IMG/VR virus record: IMGVR_UViG_3300023180_000018
Source of the DNA: a virus
Length of the DNA: 64,000 nt
Strand: one strand, 5' to 3'
Of the stretch, positions 12,277-52,691 are shown one piece after another; the first letter of the stretch is position 1, and each line of letters opens with the position of its first letter. The position numbers and the translations under genes were made by a program. The notes below the pieces were generated by a model that saw nothing but the letters and a program-made list of their open reading frames with translations, had not been told where the DNA came from and ran no database searches.

Positions 12277-12284
12277 TATTTATA
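12277..12284 (-). promoter_or_regulatory. T4-type late promoter TATAAATA (gp3)
   Basis: exact gp55 consensus upstream of gp3. Confidence 0.75.
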
Positions 12285-29380: not shown

Positions 29381-29421
29381 AAAAAAATAATGGGAGTTAT
29401 ATAGTTATTTATATAACCCCC
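29381..29421 (-). terminator. gp19 terminator hairpin containing the gp20 late promoter
   Basis: minus strand GGGGGTTATATA-AATAAC-TATATAACTCCC then ATTATTTTTTT; TATAAATA at 29406-29413. Confidence 0.65.
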
Positions 29422-36796: not shown

Positions 36797-37609
36797 TTAA
36801 AGTGTAATTTCATCCATGTTAACACTGCCATGTAAAGCTATAAATGCTAAAATTGTATCGTCACTTGTTGCAATAATTTCTTGTGAATTTGTTGGATCAT
36901 AATCAACGTATTGATTTATTGATACGTTTTCAGAATTTATAGTAAAAGAACCATTTAAACATACAATTCTACCACCAATTGCACCTGGAAATACTTTTGT
37001 GTTCATTGTTTCTGAAGAAGAAAGTTGCGCGCAATCCCACAGTTGAGTTGGAGTATCTAATGTCTGTAAGCTTGGAGGTACACCTATTTGCCAACACTCC
37101 CAGCCGCCTACTCCGGCTACTAGTTTACTTCCAGTATTTCGAAAATAAGATTCTGGATTTAAATTTAATCCATTTTCACACACTGTAGATTCAATTTGAT
37201 TTCCAGTATCATATTGAATGATAATATCTTCTTGTGAATTTAATTTTAAAGTGTGCGTTCCATTTCCCCTAATAATCCCTATATGATAACATGGGCACAA
37301 GATTTCAGGATTATACGAAGAATGATTTGTATATACGTCATCTATATTTAACTTCAATATAGGCGTTTTTCTAATCATATTTACGTCACTTATAGTGCTA
37401 GATAAGTGCATATTTTCTCTTAAATCAATCTCGGGATCATCTCCTGCACATAATATATAATGATTTTCACTTAAAACAGATTTTAATACTACTAAATTCC
37501 TCCAATATATCTGATGATCATCAACATCAAACATACCTTTTGTAACCGTTACACCCGGACCAAAAGCAATATTAGTGTGTGAATCGTAATTTATATTTCT
37601 AACTGTCAT
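36797..37609 (-). CDS. hypothetical protein (possible cupin-like beta-barrels)
   Basis: 270-aa beta-rich ORF; weak cupin/pirin-like pattern at the C-terminus only. Confidence 0.5.
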   Translation of the reverse strand: MTVRNINYDSHTNIAFGPGVTVTKGMFDVDDHQIYWRNLVVLKSVLSENHYILCAGDDPEIDLRENMHLSSTISDVNMIRKTPILKLNIDDVYTNHSSYNPEILCPCYHIGIIRGNGTHTLKLNSQEDIIIQYDTGNQIESTVCENGLNLNPESYFRNTGSKLVAGVGGWECWQIGVPPSLQTLDTPTQLWDCAQLSSSETMNTKVFPGAIGGRIVCLNGSFTINSENVSINQYVDYDPTNSQEIIATSDDTILAFIALHGSVNMDEITL

Positions 37610-37611
37610 TT

Positions 37612-38385
37612 TTAACCTGCGCTATTTCTAGATTTTAAACATCTACCATTGTTAATTGGTAAATATTTTTCATTTATATCCATTTTTAATTTTAGAATCA
37701 TATCTGATTCTTTTTTTGCAATTTGTTCAATGTTTCTAATATATTTATAATTCAAATGATCTGTGTACTCTAATAAACGATTAAAATTATATGTCCATGC
37801 TTCTGCAACAGTACATCTTCCAGTTTTTACAAATTTTCTATAATCATGACATACAGCACTTAATCCCTTTACGCCATAATTTAAACAGTTCTTAGCATCA
37901 AACGCATGATCTATTAAAGGATCTTCTTTATGTAAATAGTTTATTGGCATATCTGTTACTGCCACTTTACTTAAAAATCCGGAATCTTGTTCAGGAATAT
38001 AATTAAATAAGAATGGATTTAATATAAAAAATGATAAATCTGCTATTCCAGGATTTGCTTTTATTCTTAAATTATTATAATAACTTGCAAGATTTGAATC
38101 TTTTGAAAAAGTATATCTTTTATTTTTATAAAACGCAAAATTCGAATTGCAAATAGAATTATATTGTAAATTAATTAAATTTAGATCGCATATAATTCCA
38201 CTGGCCAAGGCAATAGTTGGTCTTGTACAATTTTTTAATACAGTATTAACTTTTTTATTATTTTCACATTGAATAATTGACCATTTCCAATCTGGAGTAT
38301 TTTTTTTCAAAGAATTAATAGTTAAAGGTAAAAGATCATTATCATTATTTAATATGATAACATCAAATTTTTGAATGTTGCTCAT
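37612..38385 (-). CDS. putative glycosyltransferase-like protein (divergent GT-A)
   Basis: N-terminal DVIIL...LTINSLKKN strand-helix resembles GT-A starts; no clear DxD; start reassigned to the ATG at 38385. Confidence 0.4.
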   Translation of the reverse strand: MSNIQKFDVIILNNDNDLLPLTINSLKKNTPDWKWSIIQCENNKKVNTVLKNCTRPTIALASGIICDLNLINLQYNSICNSNFAFYKNKRYTFSKDSNLASYYNNLRIKANPGIADLSFFILNPFLFNYIPEQDSGFLSKVAVTDMPINYLHKEDPLIDHAFDAKNCLNYGVKGLSAVCHDYRKFVKTGRCTVAEAWTYNFNRLLEYTDHLNYKYIRNIEQIAKKESDMILKLKMDINEKYLPINNGRCLKSRNSAG

Positions 38386-39274
38386 GTTCAAATTTATCCT
38401 CAAAATATTTAAAATAATTATAAATTCTTTCTTCTTGATTTTTACTATCAACTGAAATCAATCCGTTAAAATTACAAGAAAATATTGATTTCAAATCTTG
38501 TTGTATTTCTTTTTTCATTTCGTTTGGATTTTTTTTATCAAAATATATATGCTTATAAAAATTGGAATAAGTATATGATCCACGTTCTTTTCCAACGTAT
38601 GCTGTATCTAACCCTTTAATAAAGGCGATAAGGCCCATTTCAGTATTTTCACAAAATCCAACTTTATTACAATTAGCAAGAATTTCATGTCCGGACAATT
38701 CTTTATTGATAATGTTATTTTTTCCAAATTTATACTGTAGATGAGATAACATAGATTCAGGTGTTATAGGATGACACTTTATTTTAGCATTTTCACTTTT
38801 TATTAATTGCGTTATTTTATCTTCATCTACAATTTTATTGTAAATATTGTTGCCGGGTAAAAATATAACAAAATCGTTATAATCTTTATTTCGCGTAGGT
38901 CTCAATGAATATTTGTCGACATGTTTCTCATATAAAATGTTGAAAATATTTTCACCATCTTCATTAATTTTTGTCTTTTTACTTTCTTTAATTATTTCAG
39001 AATTTCTTAATCTAGATGAACATCTAATATATACAAATTTACCTAAACAATCTGTATAAAAATATCCAGAAATTTTATTATCATTTCGAGAGGAATAAGA
39101 AACATCATATTCTAATTTCGTTTTTCTTTCTTCAATTTCTTTAAATGGTAATTTTTCTCGTAATTTTGTTAATTCAACGTCATTACTAACAGATCTTAAC
39201 GCGGTACCAGATTTAAAAAAATGTGCAGATATATTTCCTAAATTGTCATCACTCGCTAGAAATTTTAGTGGCAT
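38363..39274 (-). CDS. capsule-polysaccharide synthesis (KpsS/KpsC-like GT-B) related protein
   Basis: IKCHP...SGHEILANCNKVGFCENTEMGLIAFIKG resembles the KxHP...ll...V...nStvGleA..G pattern. Confidence 0.5.
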   Translation of the reverse strand: MPLKFLASDDNLGNISAHFFKSGTALRSVSNDVELTKLREKLPFKEIEERKTKLEYDVSYSSRNDNKISGYFYTDCLGKFVYIRCSSRLRNSEIIKESKKTKINEDGENIFNILYEKHVDKYSLRPTRNKDYNDFVIFLPGNNIYNKIVDEDKITQLIKSENAKIKCHPITPESMLSHLQYKFGKNNIINKELSGHEILANCNKVGFCENTEMGLIAFIKGLDTAYVGKERGSYTYSNFYKHIYFDKKNPNEMKKEIQQDLKSIFSCNFNGLISVDSKNQEERIYNYFKYFEDKFEHEQHSKI

Positions 39275-39430: not shown

Positions 39431-42232
39431 TTATAGTGTCCAAGTATTACCATCCCAAGTCTGAGGAATTAATGTATCTAACGTTGTATCGTATACTGTT
39501 AACGTAGTTCTATTAGTATCTATATCAGTATTATAACCAGTATCAAATACCGTTAACGTAGCTCTAGTAGTAATTCTGTCTGTATCATATCCAGTATCAA
39601 ACGCTGTTAACGTAGTTCTAGTAGTATCTATATCAGTATTATAACCAGTATCAAATGCGGTCAGCGTAGTTCTAGTAGTATCTATATCAGTATTATAACC
39701 AGTATCAAACGCTGTTAATGTAACTCTATCAGTGTCTCTATCAGTTGATACTGCGGTATTGAATGCCGATTCATACGCTGTTACAGTAGTTCTATCCGTA
39801 TTTTTGCCAGTATCAAATGCAGTTAACGTAGTTCTAGTAGTATCAATTGTCGTATTTTGACCAGTATCAAATGCCGTTAACGTAGTTCTATCCGTATTTT
39901 TGCCAGTATCAAATACCGTTAACGTAGTTCTAGTAGTAGCAATATTAGTACCAAATACTGAATCATACGCTGTTACAGTAGTTCTATTGGTTGCTATTGC
40001 AGTATTAAATGCTGATTCATACGCTGTTACAGTTTGTCTATCAGTATTATAACCAGTATCAAATACCGTTAACGTAGTTCTACTAGTTCCTATTGCCGTA
40101 TTGAATCCTGATTCATACGCTGTTACAGTAGTTCTATCCGTATTTTGTCCAGTCTCAAACACTGTTAATGTTTCTATGTTTGTTTCTACTGCAGTATTAA
40201 ACGCTGATTCATACGCTGTTACAGTAGTTCTATCCGTATTTTTTCCAGTCTCAAACACTGTTAATGTAATTACATTGGTTTCTACTGCGGTATTAAACGC
40301 TGAATCGTATGCTGTAATCGTATCTCTATTCGTATTTCTTAGAGTCTCAAATGCAGTTAACGTAGTTCTAGTAGTATCTTTGGTCGTATTGGCGCCAGTA
40401 TCAAATACCGTTAGTGTAGTTTTAGTAGTACTAATATTAGTACCAAATCCTGATTCATATGCTGTAACTGTATTTCTATTAGTTCCTACTGCGGTATTAA
40501 ATGATGATTCATATGCTGTAACTGTATTTCTATTAGTTGATACTGCGGTATTAAATGCTGATTCATACGCGGTAACTGTAGCTTTATTAGTTTCTACTGC
40601 GGTATTGAATGACGAATCATACGCCGTAACAGTTGATCTATTAGTTGAGACAGAGGATGTGGCCCTATTGATCTGAAATGACCCGCCACCAAATTTATCA
40701 GATTGAATTAACGGTCCTTTGTAATAAGTAAATCCATCAGGATGCGCATAGCCGCTCAGGATCAGTGGGCCACTGTATTTTTGTACCGATGCCCAGATAA
40801 CAGAGGTGGTCGCAGTACCTGATTGGGCCCAAACATACGAGCCGGCGACTATCGTATTTGGTCCTTGCGCGCCTGTAGTATTAAATACCGTCAATGTAGC
40901 TCTAGTAGTAGCAATATTAGTATTTTGTCCAGTCTCAAACACTGTTAATGTAGATCTAGTAGTACTAATATTAGTATTCAAACCCGTCTCAAACGCTGTA
41001 AGTGTAGTTTTAGTAGTATCTTTGGTCGTATTGGCGCCAGTATCAAATACCGTTAGTGTAGTTCTAGTAGTATTGATATTAGTATTAAACGCTGATTCAT
41101 ACGCGGTAACTGTAGCTCTATTAGTTCCTACTGCGGTATTAAATGCCGATTCATATGCTGTAATCGTATCTTTATTCGTATCTCTTAGAGTCTCAAACGC
41201 TGTAAGTGTAGTTCTAGTAGTAGCAATATTAGTATCTTGACCAGTCTCAAACACCGTTAATGTTTCTATGTTTGTTTCTACTGCAGTATTAAACGCTGTA
41301 ATAGTATTTTTAGTAGTATCTTTGGTCGTATTTTGTCCAGTCTCAAACACTGTTAATGTAATTATATTGGTTTCTACTGCGGTATTGAATGCTGTAATAG
41401 TATTTTTAGTAGTATCAATATTAGTATCTTTACCAGTATCAAATGCTGTAATCGTATCTTTATTGGTTGCTACTGCAGTGTTGAATGCTGTAATAGTAGA
41501 TTTAGTAGTATCAATTGTCGTATCTTGACCAGTATTAAACACCGTTAGTGTAGTTTTAGTAGTAGCAATATTAGTATTAAACGCTGAATCGTATGCTGTA
41601 ATCGTATTTTTGTTGGTTTCTACTGCAGTGTTGAATGCTGTAATCGTATTTCTGTTGGTTTCTATTGCAGTATTGAATGCCGATTCATATGCTGTAATCG
41701 TATCACGATTAGTTTCTACTGCAGTATTAAACGCTGTAACCGTATCTCTAGTAGTATCAATTGTCGTATCTTGACCAGTATCAAACACCGTATTAAAAGC
41801 AGTAATCGTATCACGATTAGTTTCTACTGCAGTATTGAATGCTGAAACAAAAGCAGTAACCGTATTACGATTAGTTTCTACTGCAGTATTGAATGCTGAA
41901 ACAAAAGCAGTAACCGTATTACGATTAGTTTCTACTGCAGTATCAAACGCGGTAATAAATGCAGTTACTGTAGCTTTATTGGTTGCTACTGCGGTATTAA
42001 ATGCTGATACGAAAGCAGTAAGAGTAGTACGATTCGTATTGAATGTAGTAAGGAATAATGTATCAATTGTAGCATTATAAAAATCACCTAAAGAAATAGC
42101 GCCAGTAGGTTTAGCTGGATCTGGAAATTGTCGTACATAATTAATGTTTAGACTGATACTACTATTGCTAGTATTACCCATCTCGACATTAATGTCAGAC
42201 ATTGATATTGGGCCTGAACCTTGTAGCGCCAT
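39431..42232 (-). CDS. Thr-rich mirror-repeat fibre protein with central tip domain
   Basis: N-terminal MALQGSGPISMSDI..E.G...ISLGDFY module, two arms of 22 repeat units (14/18/22 aa), central non-repeat domain. Confidence 0.85.
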   Translation of the reverse strand: MALQGSGPISMSDINVEMGNTSNSSISLNINYVRQFPDPAKPTGAISLGDFYNATIDTLFLTTFNTNRTTLTAFVSAFNTAVATNKATVTAFITAFDTAVETNRNTVTAFVSAFNTAVETNRNTVTAFVSAFNTAVETNRDTITAFNTVFDTGQDTTIDTTRDTVTAFNTAVETNRDTITAYESAFNTAIETNRNTITAFNTAVETNKNTITAYDSAFNTNIATTKTTLTVFNTGQDTTIDTTKSTITAFNTAVATNKDTITAFDTGKDTNIDTTKNTITAFNTAVETNIITLTVFETGQNTTKDTTKNTITAFNTAVETNIETLTVFETGQDTNIATTRTTLTAFETLRDTNKDTITAYESAFNTAVGTNRATVTAYESAFNTNINTTRTTLTVFDTGANTTKDTTKTTLTAFETGLNTNISTTRSTLTVFETGQNTNIATTRATLTVFNTTGAQGPNTIVAGSYVWAQSGTATTSVIWASVQKYSGPLILSGYAHPDGFTYYKGPLIQSDKFGGGSFQINRATSSVSTNRSTVTAYDSSFNTAVETNKATVTAYESAFNTAVSTNRNTVTAYESSFNTAVGTNRNTVTAYESGFGTNISTTKTTLTVFDTGANTTKDTTRTTLTAFETLRNTNRDTITAYDSAFNTAVETNVITLTVFETGKNTDRTTVTAYESAFNTAVETNIETLTVFETGQNTDRTTVTAYESGFNTAIGTSRTTLTVFDTGYNTDRQTVTAYESAFNTAIATNRTTVTAYDSVFGTNIATTRTTLTVFDTGKNTDRTTLTAFDTGQNTTIDTTRTTLTAFDTGKNTDRTTVTAYESAFNTAVSTDRDTDRVTLTAFDTGYNTDIDTTRTTLTAFDTGYNTDIDTTRTTLTAFDTGYDTDRITTRATLTVFDTGYNTDIDTNRTTLTVYDTTLDTLIPQTWDGNTWTL
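39506..42025 (-). repeat. coding tandem repeats of 42/54/66 nt in two arms (42025-40898 and 40633-39506)
   Basis: units delimited by T[LVI]T, counted from the translation. Confidence 0.9.
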
Positions 42233-42251: not shown

Positions 42252-42791
42252 TTAACTATTTATAGTTTTAAGTTCATCTATTTGTTTTTGTTGTTCTTTG
42301 ACAACTTCAATGAGCAAAGCTACTATTCTGTCATATTTTACGGCTAATAATCCATTTTCTCTTTCTGCTACAAGTTCAGGTAAAACATTTTGTAATTCTT
42401 GTGCAATAACTCCTACATCTGCTTTTCTAATATTATAATCATCAACTCCGCCTACACTTTCTAAATGGGCATCAGTCCAATCAAAGTTATATCCATTTAA
42501 AGCTTTTACTTTTTCAATAGGATTTTCAATATTTCTTACATTTTCTTTTAACCTAGAATCAGATGAATAAAACGCAGTTATATCGCCTGTTGCAGTAATA
42601 TTGCCAGTAACTGAAATTCCTGCAGAAAAAGTCATCGCACCTGCGGCGGTATCTGCAACATCACTTCTCAAAAAGTTTGCGCCTTCAATTCCATCCACCG
42701 TATCTGCATTTAATCCAGACCCAGGCCCATCATTACCGGCGTGCCAAACAAGTGAACCACCTATAGTTGTTCCTGTTCTAAGTTTCGACAT
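42252..42791 (-). CDS. short tail-fibre protein with peptidase S74 intramolecular chaperone domain
   Basis: GSGLNADTVDG, ATGDITAFYSSDSRLKENV, GVIAQE, VKYDRIVALLIE. Confidence 0.85.
   Translation of the reverse strand: MSKLRTGTTIGGSLVWHAGNDGPGSGLNADTVDGIEGANFLRSDVADTAAGAMTFSAGISVTGNITATGDITAFYSSDSRLKENVRNIENPIEKVKALNGYNFDWTDAHLESVGGVDDYNIRKADVGVIAQELQNVLPELVAERENGLLAVKYDRIVALLIEVVKEQQKQIDELKTINS
42257..42264 (-). promoter_or_regulatory. late promoter TATAAATA (Thr-rich fibre cassette)
   Basis: exact consensus 25 nt upstream of the fibre start codon. Confidence 0.7.
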
Positions 42792-48677: not shown

Positions 48678-48685
48678 TATTTATA
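48678..48685 (-). promoter_or_regulatory. late promoter TATAAATA (long fibre)
   Basis: exact consensus. Confidence 0.7.
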
Positions 48686-49307
48686 CAAACTTTGGCCCGT
48701 AAACCCACCAAACAATTGACTTTCTTAGTCCAGTTTTTACTCTACCAACTCGATGTAAAGTCCAGGAAGGAAATGCAATTAAAGTATTTCTTTTTTGTTC
48801 TAACGTAGTTAGTACACCAGAATCCATTATTTGGAATTTTCCACCTTTATATTCTTCTGGATCTGATAGAATTAAACTAAAACTTAATTTTCTATGCATT
48901 GCAGAATTCATTTCTAAATTTGTATTTAAATCTGAAAATTTATCACAATGTAAAGAATAGTGTTGACCTTTATAATACGATGTCAATTGTATAAAATTAA
49001 AACCAGTTAGATTAAATCCAAAATAAGCATCATTGATACTTTCTGTTAATGTATAGAGAGAATGGAACGCAGCAATAGATAATTCATTTGTATCATCGTA
49101 GTTATAAAAACTTAAATTAGAAGATCTAATTTTTGAGTCTTTTATTCCATCACTACTGTCGATACCATCTTTTCTTATTGCTTGAGGATCTGTTGAATTA
49201 AAATATTCTTCTAAAATATTTAATTCGTCTTCTGGCATAGCATTTTCAAAAATTAAATAATCTTCTTGACATAATAATTTTTTTTCTGGATAGGGCGTTA
49301 ATGGCAT
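48681..49307 (-). CDS. 2OG-Fe(II) oxygenase (prolyl-4-hydroxylase/PKHD-like)
   Basis: HCD, RKLSFSLILSDPEEYKGG, FPSWTLHRVGRVKTGLRKSIVWW. Confidence 0.88.
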   Translation of the reverse strand: MPLTPYPEKKLLCQEDYLIFENAMPEDELNILEEYFNSTDPQAIRKDGIDSSDGIKDSKIRSSNLSFYNYDDTNELSIAAFHSLYTLTESINDAYFGFNLTGFNFIQLTSYYKGQHYSLHCDKFSDLNTNLEMNSAMHRKLSFSLILSDPEEYKGGKFQIMDSGVLTTLEQKRNTLIAFPSWTLHRVGRVKTGLRKSIVWWVYGPKFV

Positions 49308-49335: not shown

Positions 49336-50280
49336 TTATGTATTTTTTAAAGCATCTATTTCGGCTTTGAGTGCTTTGCACACTGATATTAAAAACGCAG
49401 ATAGTTTTTGATAATCTACAGCTTTAAATCCATTTTCACGAGTTTCAACTAATGTAGGTTGTATTTCTTCAATTTCTTGTGCAATTACACCAATAGCGTG
49501 ACCGGTTTGTTGATGAATATCTGGAAAAGGAATCCAATCATATTCATATCCATTTATTTGATCTAACTTAGATAAAGCATCAGTGATAGGAGTAATATTT
49601 TCTTTTAATCTTTGATCCGAAGAAGCAAACGCTGTAACATCACCGGTACAAGAAAGTGCACCTACGATTCTACTATTTCCATTAACATGTAAAGCATATG
49701 CGCCGGGAGCAGTATTAACGCCTACTCTAGTTGCAGTTGTATCAACGTGTAAAATTGGAGTTGCAACAGCACCAAATACTGTATTTCCACCAGTAACATT
49801 AAGTACTTCATCTGCAGAAAGATATTTAAAAACTACGTCTGAACCAGTTCCAAAGTTGATAGCTTGATCGTCAACTAAAGTAACACTACCTTTTCTCATA
49901 CGAACATTTGCAGCTATATGATTTTCAGGATCAGGATCAGAAACATCACCAAAACTCAATGTTTTTTCTGCGGTACCAAAATATTCATCATCTTCATCTG
50001 AGCGTAAAAACTGGCTTGAAGATAAACCTCCGACTGCAGATCCATTTACATTAGTTAATTGAGAACCATTTCCAAAGAAATACGGCGCTACAACATTTGC
50101 AGCAGCTTCAATAGCATTTTGTGTATTTCCACTGTGTGATTGCCCAATCGACATTACGCCATTAGTACCATCAACATAAAATTTATTAGTGTTTACTGTA
50201 ATATTAGCATCACCTATAACGACGTCGCCGTCTGTAGTTAAGCCTTCTAATACTTCAAATTTTATTGCTTGATTTGCCAT
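49336..50280 (-). CDS. tail-fibre protein with peptidase S74 chaperone domain
   Basis: TGDVTAFASSDQRLKENI, GVIAQE, KAVDYQKL. Confidence 0.85.
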   Translation of the reverse strand: MANQAIKFEVLEGLTTDGDVVIGDANITVNTNKFYVDGTNGVMSIGQSHSGNTQNAIEAAANVVAPYFFGNGSQLTNVNGSAVGGLSSSQFLRSDEDDEYFGTAEKTLSFGDVSDPDPENHIAANVRMRKGSVTLVDDQAINFGTGSDVVFKYLSADEVLNVTGGNTVFGAVATPILHVDTTATRVGVNTAPGAYALHVNGNSRIVGALSCTGDVTAFASSDQRLKENITPITDALSKLDQINGYEYDWIPFPDIHQQTGHAIGVIAQEIEEIQPTLVETRENGFKAVDYQKLSAFLISVCKALKAEIDALKNT

Positions 50281-52361: not shown

Positions 52362-52691
52362 TTAAATTTTAGTTACACCAGGATTTACTGTTAAAATACC
52401 TTCTATAATTCTAGAAACAAGTCCTAAATCATTAGTCAATTCAACATCATAAACATATCTTCCAGGCTCCATTGAATTTGTAGTTGTAGAATCTAGTGTT
52501 AATGTAACAGTACCGTCGGGAACACTTAAAGCTACACCAATATTAATCGCAGTAGAAGAAGTATAATATCTTCTAATTTGACCTGCTCCAGTATATCCTT
52601 GTAGATCTATTGCAGCACCATCTTCTTTTAATGTAATAACAGTTTCCCAATCAGCACCTTGATCTATATTTAAATTTGCTTTCGTTGCCAT
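52362..52691 (-). CDS. conserved Ig-like (BppU-N-like) virion protein
   Basis: NLNIDQGADW...DLQGYT..QIRR...GRYVYDVEL...RIIEGILTVNPGVT. Confidence 0.7.
   Translation of the reverse strand: MATKANLNIDQGADWETVITLKEDGAAIDLQGYTGAGQIRRYYTSSTAINIGVALSVPDGTVTLTLDSTTTNSMEPGRYVYDVELTNDLGLVSRIIEGILTVNPGVTKI

What the first reader, a model, noticed from the sequence alone, without database searches (positions are those of the whole stretch)
39431..42232. Protein stem-loop: a 933-aa fibre whose two arms are exact mirror-complementary repeat arrays
Seen in sequence: cutting the protein at each T[LVI]T gives 22 units before and 22 units after a central 88-aa domain (aa 446-533), with 376 aa per arm. N-arm unit lengths are 18,18,18,18,22,14,18,14,18,18,14,18,14,18,14,18,14,18,18,18,18,18, and the C-arm gives exactly the reversed series. 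Mirrored units are complements, not copies. Type A (AYESAFNTAVETNRN) always faces type B (VFDTGxNTxIDTTRT), 14-mer a (AFNTAVETNRD) faces b (VFDTGKNTDRT), and the single 22-mers face each other. Hybrid types C (AYESAFNTNIxTTRT) and D (AFETLRxTNxD) face their own kind. Written antiparallel, Thr/Ser lies opposite Thr, F/Y mostly opposite R/K, and F opposite I; C and D are self-complementary under these rules. Inference: the chain folds back into one very long antiparallel beta-hairpin, roughly 120-130 nm if fully extended, whose register is set by a residue-level pairing code like a nucleic-acid stem, with a globular tip at the far end. I know of no described phage fibre with this architecture.
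Basis: partly seen in the sequence, partly recalled or inferred. Interest (0 to 1): 0.93.

Follow-up and report, generated by a model that had tools for sequence, protein, structure and literature searches.

The report
Fold-back Thr-ladder phage fibre protein
A late gene of an uncultured T4-type phage encodes a 933-residue protein whose first and second halves match each other in reverse order, residue by residue, under a simple pairing rule. The chain most likely runs out, turns at a small tip domain and zips back on itself as a very long, thin two-stranded beta ribbon, a fibre design I could not find described.

Summary
The gene lies on the minus strand (39431-42232). It has 22 + 22 units around a central domain. 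The unit-length series of the C-arm is exactly the reverse of the N-arm (1 of 1.19 million arrangements).

Thr faces Thr at 93 positions with i+j = 982. All 126 Phe/Tyr/Trp/Arg/Lys of the two arms (125 without the one Trp) sit on one residue parity. Every non-Thr rung on that face carries at most one aromatic: 71 of 86 rungs have one, facing Arg/Lys or Ile/Val, and none has two.

No DNA inverted repeat explains this. The same mirror and the same code occur in a distant family, the gp7-like 'baseplate wedge' proteins that include Stenotrophomonas phage DLP_6. There, insertions and deletions come in mirrored pairs, and the aromatic swaps arms in 17 of 55 rungs (2-7 in slid controls).

I conclude that the arms pair antiparallel in residue register, as beta strands rather than helices. 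The oligomeric state is open, and structure prediction gave no usable model.

The closest known architecture is the out-and-back needle of T4 gp37, but the protein is not a member of that family. This scan has noted similar mirror-coded fibres on other phage DNA. I found no published description.

The parts
39431..42232 (-). Whole coding sequence, 933 aa plus stop (P0001)
42257..42264 (-). T4-type late promoter motif TATAAATA, 25 nt upstream of the ATG, inside the end of the upstream gene
   Evidence: all 14 matches in the window are on the minus strand, most just upstream of gene starts
42068..42232 (-). N-terminal module, aa 1-55. It contains two G-x-I-S-x-x-D motifs and is a probable attachment adaptor.
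   Evidence: the same module heads unrelated proteins (P0022, P0025, P0031, P0035 and others).: these carry gp38-like (below the Pfam cut-off) or FG-GAP beta-propeller C-terminal parts.: weak hit to phrog_26817 (unknown function).
40877..42067 (-). Outgoing arm, aa 56-452: Thr every fourth residue, with T-x-T phase slips every 14, 18 or 22 residues
40646..40876 (-). Tip domain, aa 453-529: non-repetitive and rich in Gly, Pro, Trp and Tyr. It holds 4 of the 9 prolines and the only His.
39455..40645 (-). Return arm, aa 530-926: mirror partner of the outgoing arm at i+j = 982
39434..39454 (-). C-terminal tail, aa 927-933, ending next to the N-terminal module

Best explanation
The gene encodes a late-expressed virion appendage of a T4-superfamily myovirus.

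Proposed layout:
- A 55-residue N-terminal adaptor module fixes the protein to the particle.
- Residues 56-452 run outward as one uninterrupted extended (beta) segment.
- Residues 453-529 form a small Gly/aromatic-rich tip domain.
- Residues 530-926 run back alongside the outgoing segment, antiparallel and in exact residue register (i+j = 982). Both chain ends therefore lie at the base and the tip domain lies at the far end.

Proposed structure of the ribbon:
- One face of the two-stranded ribbon is a ladder in which Thr:Thr rungs alternate with rungs holding exactly one aromatic residue opposite Arg/Lys or Ile/Val.
- The other face carries small and polar residues (Ala, Asn, Asp, Glu, Gly).
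- The T-x-T phase slips fall at irregular intervals (14/18/22). They act as register marks that make the correct alignment of the two periodic arms the best one.

If straight, about 390 rungs at roughly 0.33 nm each give a filament of the order of 100-130 nm. This is an inference.

What is shown: the mirror, the code, its conservation and its compensatory evolution, which imply that the arms are in contact; and the beta-type periodicity.

What is inferred: pairing within one chain rather than between chains; the length; attachment by the N-terminal module; and host binding by the tip. Whether the ribbon stays single or several ribbons bundle (for example three, as in the T4 gp37 needle) is open.
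For: (1) The unit-length palindrome is exact and the type pairing holds in 22 of 22 unit pairs. There are 93 Thr:Thr rungs at one register. Shuffled unit order never reaches the observed value.

(2) The pairing code is one aromatic per rung: 71 of 86 rungs have one, 0 have two, and there is 1 cation:cation rung. The same statistics hold in five distant homologues.

(3) No long DNA inverted repeat joins the arms, so the mirror exists only at the protein level.

(4) The 18 gp7-like homologues share 35% identity or less with P0001 and 38-92% with each other. Almost all show one sharp mirror peak.

(5) Relative to P0006, their indels are mirrored:
- +10 at -38 with +10 at +42 from the axis (five proteins)
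- -14 at -22 with -14 at +46/+58 (two proteins)
- +4 at -138 with +4 at +140, and +15 at about -230 with +16 at +234 (five proteins)

(6) In 17 of 55 rungs the aromatic sits on the outgoing arm in some homologues and on the return arm in others. With partners slid by 2, 4 or 8 residues this happens in only 2-7 rungs.

(7) Beta rather than helix:
- All 126 Phe/Tyr/Trp/Arg/Lys of both arms lie on one residue parity.
- The side-chain-size spectrum peaks at 180 degrees (122 and 201) against 2 and 12 at 100 degrees.
- Thr is 31% of the arms (116 and 117 of 376 residues) and 28% of the whole protein. Gly recurs in type-B units, and Pro occurs in the arms of homologues.
- Thr is almost the only invariant residue in the family alignment.
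- Thr-rich repeats are reported to favour beta hairpins (PMC11936462, abstract).

(8) Late structural gene: a TATAAATA motif lies 25 nt upstream. The gene sits in a block of tail-fibre genes, upstream of gp14 and gp15.

(9) Within the gene, units 18-20 and 26-28 are direct DNA copies (89%, 83% and 98% identity). Because the block A-C-B is self-complementary under the code, a direct duplication across the tip yields a stem. The ages of tandem duplications at mirrored positions correlate (r = 0.54, n = 22, pairs not independent).
Against: There is no structural model. AlphaFold2 gave pLDDT 37 for the single sequence and predicted helices for type-A units. With the family alignment it gave pLDDT 35, although that model was all-beta with strands of 20-36 residues.

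A free two-stranded ribbon of about 390 rungs has no precedent and no conventional hydrophobic core.

Registers shifted by one 18-residue unit still give 76-79 Thr:Thr matches against 86, so discrimination by Thr alone is modest.

The units within P0001 are related by duplication, so within-protein statistics overstate independence.

The family alignment is uncertain in its most divergent members.

No close orthologue of P0001 itself was found, so the mirrored-indel test rests on the distant family.
Confidence: 0.7

Rival explanations
1. The same antiparallel pairing occurs, but between chains. The outgoing arm of one molecule pairs with the return arm of another, giving an antiparallel dimer or a staggered polymer rather than a hairpin.
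For: The mirror, the code and the compensatory changes show only that the arms pair, not that both belong to one chain.
Against: The arms are joined by only 77 residues, so intramolecular pairing has a large kinetic advantage. In homologues such as P0006 the Thr:Thr rungs continue to within 8 residues of the axis, which fits a turn. The mirror axis stays centred between fixed anchors at both ends in all homologues tested.
Confidence: 0.12
2. The protein is an alpha-helical antiparallel coiled-coil hairpin. Units of 18, 14 and 22 residues equal 5, 4 and 6 helical turns, with large residues at unit positions 2, 5, 9, 13 and 17 as the core stripe.
For: 18/5 = 3.6 residues per turn, and 14 and 22 are two heptads and two hendecads (arithmetic only). 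Single-sequence AlphaFold2 drew helices over type-A units at pLDDT 50-60. The gene lies near the position that fibritin, a coiled coil, holds in T4 (established T4 gene order).
Against: The strict two-residue alternation over 376 residues per arm has no rationale in a helix (126 of 126 large residues on one parity). In a helix the invariant Thr would lie opposite the hydrophobic stripe, yet Thr is the most conserved feature. The arms are 31% Thr, with recurrent Gly, Asn and Asp, and Pro occurs in homologues' arms. With an alignment, AlphaFold2 gives all-beta (low confidence).
Confidence: 0.06
3. The protein is a beta-solenoid or parallel triple beta-helix in which each 14-22-residue unit is one coil. 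In this reading the mirror order of the units is a historical accident of duplication.
For: Units with T-x-T motifs resemble coils of insect antifreeze solenoids (from memory). Most phage fibre shafts are parallel trimers (established knowledge).
Against: A solenoid gives no reason for an exact length palindrome. It gives no reason for mirrored indels as small as 4 residues in a distant family, for arm-swapping of the aromatic, or for an alternation that is never broken at coil corners.
Confidence: 0.05
4. The arms are a disordered, mucin-like Thr-rich spacer, perhaps glycosylated, with no defined pairing.
For: The protein is 28% Thr. Other first-reader notes on this window suggested neighbouring glycosyltransferases (e1-5729471).
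Against: The arms contain no Pro. They have strict periodicity and conserved aromatic and cationic positions, and the mirror is conserved across the family. The three neighbouring genes have no glycosyltransferase or other Pfam family.
Confidence: 0.02

Closest known systems
Needle and head of the phage T4 long tail fibre tip, gp37 C-terminal region (Bartual et al. 2010, as described in PMC9659904)
   Same: The chain runs out to a distal head domain and returns, so antiparallel strands from one chain lie side by side in a thin fibre. It is a phage host-recognition appendage, and both ends of the segment lie at the proximal side.
   Different: gp37's needle is short (tens of residues per arm) and is an obligate trimer forming a six-stranded tube. 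It is held by iron ions bound to H-x-H motifs. P0001 has a single His, about 390 rungs, a repeat code, and no sequence similarity to any solved chain. A mirror test on gp37's His positions was ambiguous.
gp7-like 'baseplate wedge subunit' proteins of Stenotrophomonas phage DLP_6 and metagenomic relatives (P0002-P0013, P0045-P0052; Pfam PF23786 N-terminal domain)
   Same: They share the Thr-every-fourth-residue repeat, the mirror between an outgoing and a returning arm, and the one-aromatic-per-rung code. They are the only detectable sequence relatives.
   Different: In them the stem is the C-terminal extension of a roughly 530-aa baseplate wedge domain (the gene sits at the gp7 position). Their arms are about 250 residues, their units are less regular and their tips are small. 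A domain of about 134 residues seems to be inserted in the outgoing arm only. P0001 has no wedge domain. It has a different N-terminal adaptor and much more regular arms of about 390 residues.
Elongated single-layer beta-sheet proteins (Borrelia OspA central sheet; Staphylococcus SasG G5-E rods), recalled from my own knowledge
   Same: They are long, thin beta structures without a conventional hydrophobic core, stabilised by cross-strand side-chain pairs.
   Different: They are built from short strands that reverse many times, not from two strands hundreds of residues long. They have no mirror code.
Nucleic-acid stem-loops (conceptual analogue)
   Same: Two arms are read in opposite directions. 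A complementarity rule sets the register. Indels and substitutions are compensated on the opposite arm, and there are loop and bulge elements.
   Different: The rule here is binary and steric/electrostatic (one aromatic per rung, Thr opposite Thr), not hydrogen-bonded base pairing. It acts on a peptide backbone ladder.

Membership tests
T4 gp37 needle/tip | Sequence similarity to gp37 or another solved fibre tip | tested here: not met
   No PDB chain matches at E <= 1. No Pfam or PHROG family is found.
T4 gp37 needle/tip | H-x-H motifs that coordinate iron along the needle | tested here: not met
   The whole protein has one His, and it lies in the tip. T4 gp37 has seven H-x-H motifs in aa 883-1000.
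T4 gp37 needle/tip | Out-and-back antiparallel strands with a distal head domain | tested here: inconclusive
   Implied by the mirror, the mirrored indels and the compensatory swaps, but no structure was obtained.
T4 gp37 needle/tip | Homotrimer forming a six-stranded tube | not testable with these tools
   The one trimer prediction job returned no verdict (see Tried and rejected).
gp7-like baseplate wedge proteins with a Thr-repeat extension (PF23786) | N-terminal baseplate wedge domain | tested here: not met
   P0001 has no Pfam family. Its homologues carry PF23786.
gp7-like baseplate wedge proteins with a Thr-repeat extension (PF23786) | Mirrored Thr-tetrad arms with a one-aromatic-per-rung code | tested here: met
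Fibritin (T4 wac) | Parallel trimeric coiled coil with heptad repeats and a C-terminal foldon | tested here: not met
   No family hit. The arms have period-2 beta-type alternation, not heptads. Only the map position near gp13-gp15 is similar.
T-x-T beta-solenoids (insect antifreeze type) | Constant coil length, contacts only between successive coils, Cys or other coil staples | tested here: not met
   Coil lengths vary in a palindromic series. There is no Cys. Comparative data require long-range mirrored contacts.

The most novel reading that the evidence does not exclude
A class of phage fibre built as a single polypeptide 'stem-loop'. It would be a two-stranded beta ribbon some hundred nanometres long. 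Its register is written in a binary residue code (Thr opposite Thr; one aromatic opposite a cationic or aliphatic residue). It grows by matched duplications, tolerates bulge domains, and evolves by compensatory changes as an RNA helix does. Such a design would be a programmable, length-adjustable protein rod.
Probability: 0.45. Interest if true: 0.95.

Novelty: categorically new. Interest (0 to 1): 0.86.

Why it matters
If the fold-back ribbon is real, it is the longest known regular two-stranded beta structure. It is also a rare case in which a protein's long-range contacts can be read from the sequence by a pairing rule, with compensatory evolution like that of RNA stems.

It would give phage biology a new kind of host-reaching appendage that uses very little coding capacity per nanometre. 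It would explain unannotated Thr-rich regions in baseplate and fibre proteins of T4-type phages, including a cultured one (DLP_6) in which it can be tested.

It would also offer protein designers a simple code for rods of chosen length carrying an exchangeable tip.

Tried and rejected
Structure prediction:
- AlphaFold2 on the whole protein without an alignment gave pLDDT 37, which is unusable.
- AlphaFold2 on the P0006 stem with the 18-sequence alignment A1 gave pLDDT 35. The model was all-beta, but its confidence is too low to use for contacts or fold search.
- One complex job (three copies of aa 374-608) returned 'no answer' with score 0.00 and uncertain chain folds. It says nothing either way.

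Searches for relatives and families:
- blastn and tblastn against phage records found only the DLP_6 repeat region.
- Viral and metagenome contig scans found no close relatives.
- No whole genome is held for this window.
- Pfam, PHROGs and PDB sequence searches found no family.
- The ESM Atlas found nothing for the tip domain.

Hypotheses tested and dropped:
- A DNA palindrome as the cause of the mirror is rejected: there is no long inverted repeat between the arms.
- The mirror test on the His positions of T4 gp37, meant as a positive control, was ambiguous (two equal weak peaks).
- Several phmmer hits (P0014-P0021 and others) turned out to be unrelated repeat proteins with no mirror signal.

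Literature: four full-text searches found no description of such a fibre. 'Tentaclins' and chaperone 'tentacles' are unrelated short hairpins.
Full report
**What is there**

The finding's coordinates hold one ORF on the minus strand: 933 aa, ATG at 42232, stop at 39431-39433. It belongs to a continuous block of minus-strand genes.

The portal protein of the window is 54% identical to those of Stenotrophomonas phage DLP_6 and T4-like Synechococcus phages. The T4 neck protein gp14 and the sheath stabiliser gp15 are recognised a few genes downstream. The DNA is therefore from an uncultured T4-superfamily myovirus with 34% GC.

The neighbours are tail-fibre genes. Two proteins carry the endosialidase-chaperone domain, one is like a long-tail-fibre connector, and several are large fibre-like proteins.

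A T4 late-promoter motif, TATAAATA, lies 25 nt upstream of the start codon. All 14 copies of this motif in the window are on the minus strand, most of them just upstream of genes. This is a late, presumably structural gene.

Cutting the protein at T[LVI]T gives 22 units (aa 70-445), an 88-aa centre, 22 units (aa 534-909) and a short tail. The C-arm length series read backwards is identical to the N-arm series. That is one arrangement out of 1,193,808.

At the residue level a mirror autocorrelation of Thr positions peaks at i+j = 982. There are 93 Thr:Thr rungs, from 62:920 to 452:530. The paired stretch is thus about 390 rungs and the unpaired tip is 77 aa.

Shuffling the order of the C-arm units never reproduces the observed Thr:Thr count (0 of 3000). 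No other ORF of the window has a comparable signal.

The arms are not a DNA inverted repeat, so the mirror exists only in the protein.

**The code**

Each arm shows an unbroken two-residue alternation over its whole length.

- One parity holds Thr and every one of the 126 Phe, Tyr, Trp, Arg and Lys residues.
- The other parity holds Ala, Asn, Asp, Glu, Gly, and the aliphatic residue at the centre of each T-x-T.

On the first face, Thr:Thr rungs alternate with rungs that hold exactly one aromatic residue. Of 86 such rungs, 47 are aromatic:Arg/Lys, 24 are aromatic:aliphatic, none is aromatic:aromatic (expected 14.6) and one is cation:cation (expected 8.2).

Each unit carries its aromatics in its first half and its Ile/Val and Arg/Lys in its second half. 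It is therefore complementary to any unit of equal length placed antiparallel to it. The T-x-T motif is where the Thr/large-residue phase slips by two.

**Comparative evidence**

HMMER searches found one true family of relatives: proteins of about 1250-1400 aa with an N-terminal Pfam 'Baseplate_wedge' domain. One of them is the DLP_6 protein, which sits at the gp7 position of its baseplate operon. Their C-terminal 570-700 residues are Thr-tetrad repeats with a different, less regular unit series.

- Almost all of them show one sharp mirror peak of their own, and Thr:Thr rungs run to within a few residues of the axis.
- In their alignment Thr is nearly the only invariant residue.
- Relative to P0006, indels come in mirrored pairs: +10 at -38 with +10 at +42 from the axis; -14 at -22 with -14 at +46/+58; +4 at -138 with +4 at +140; +15 near -230 with +16 at +234.
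- The one-aromatic rule holds in each homologue tested.
- In 17 of 55 rungs the aromatic lies on the outgoing arm in some homologues and on the return arm in others. Only 2-7 rungs do so when the partner column is slid by 2, 4 or 8.

This is the protein analogue of compensatory change in an RNA stem.

In this family a domain of about 134 residues appears to be inserted in the outgoing arm only, with pairing resuming below it (modest signal, 10-13 against 8-11 matches).

**Beta or helix**

Units of 18, 14 and 22 residues also fit 5, 4 and 6 helical turns, and single-sequence AlphaFold2 drew helices over type-A units. I therefore weighed an antiparallel coiled coil. I reject it for five reasons:

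- The strict period-2 pattern. The side-chain-size spectrum gives 122 and 201 at 180 degrees against 2 and 12 at 100 degrees, and 126 of 126 large residues lie on one parity.
- The composition: 31% Thr in the arms, with recurrent Gly, Asn and Asp.
- Pro occurs inside homologues' arms.
- In a helix the invariant Thr would lie opposite the hydrophobic stripe.
- With the family alignment AlphaFold2 gave an all-beta model with strands of 20-36 residues, although at pLDDT 35.

In a two-stranded antiparallel ribbon all non-hydrogen-bonded pairs project to one face and all hydrogen-bonded pairs to the other (established geometry). This would explain two chemically distinct faces without invoking a bundle.

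**How it probably evolved**

Tandem-repeat blocks are arranged symmetrically around the tip, as 54-bp, 96-bp and 54-bp arrays on each side.

Most units have their closest DNA relative in their own arm (28 of 44). Similarities of neighbouring units at mirrored positions correlate (r = 0.54). This fits matched expansions in both arms.

Units 18-20 and 26-28 are direct copies of one another (89, 83 and 98% DNA identity). The block A-C-B is self-complementary under the code, so a direct duplication across the tip creates paired stem.

**Function**

The first 55 residues are a module that also heads unrelated metagenomic proteins. The C-terminal parts of those proteins are gp38-like glycine-rich regions (below the Pfam cut-off) or FG-GAP beta-propellers. 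I read this module as an attachment adaptor and the distal 77-aa Gly/Trp/Tyr-rich domain as the binding end. Both readings are inferences.

The partner on the virion and the oligomeric state are unknown.

**Comparison with what is known**

The T4 gp37 needle is the closest solved architecture: antiparallel strands running out to a head domain and back (PMC9659904). P0001 fails its defining features of sequence and metal-binding motifs. It is not fibritin despite its map position.

Four full-text searches found no description of such a mirror-coded fibre.

This scan has noted similar fold-back or mirror-coded Thr-rich fibres in other marine T4-like phage genomes. Those are unchecked AI notes and not independent evidence. 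They do suggest that the design is widespread.

**Verdict**

Pairing of the arms is well supported by evolution-based evidence. Beta character is well supported by periodicity. Hairpin against in-trans pairing, the oligomeric state, the length and the function all remain to be shown experimentally.

Noticed in passing
window 42252-42791 (-) and 49336-50280 (-): Two small proteins (179 and 314 aa) consist largely of the endosialidase-type intramolecular chaperone domain (Peptidase_S74) that normally ends tail fibres. The 179-aa one lies directly upstream of the fold-back gene. It could be a stand-alone fibre chaperone like those described for Alteromonas phages (PMC10579305).
   Followed up: partly
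window, 14 sites such as 12277-12284, 29406-29413, 42257-42264, 48678-48685: All 14 copies of the T4 late-promoter motif TATAAATA are on the minus strand and most sit just upstream of gene starts. The total count is not above chance (14.9 expected), so it is the strand bias and placement that stand out.
   Followed up: partly
window 40634-40897: The tip-domain DNA is 46% GC against 36% for the gene and 34% for the window. This may simply reflect its Gly/Pro/Ala-rich composition, or it may mark an exchanged module.
   Followed up: partly
window 36797-39274 (-), three genes of 303, 279 and 270 aa: Other first-reader notes call these genes glycosyltransferase-like. They have no Pfam family even at E = 1. 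The 303-aa protein matches only PHROG families of unknown function.
   Followed up: partly
window 48681-49307 (-): A 2OG-Fe(II) oxygenase-like protein (phrog_61, E 5e-31) sits inside the fibre gene block. It is possibly a fibre-modifying hydroxylase.
   Followed up: no
window 52362-52691 (-): A 109-aa protein matches tail-fibre assembly chaperone families (phrog_3304, L-shaped tail fibre assembly). It lies directly downstream of the 1719-aa fibre-like gene.
   Followed up: no
P0006 (DLP_6 gp7-like protein) aa 533-573 with aa 1242-1282; L001 6799-10665: In the gp7-like family the last ~50 residues mirror a short Thr repeat that lies before a ~134-residue globular insert. It is as if the stem carried a bulge domain in its outgoing arm only.
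   Followed up: partly
L003 6001-7050 (P0025) and P0031, P0035: The N-terminal 55-aa module of the fold-back protein also heads gp38-like glycine-rich proteins and an FG-GAP beta-propeller protein in metagenomic contigs. It looks like a portable attachment adaptor of unknown partner.
   Followed up: partly
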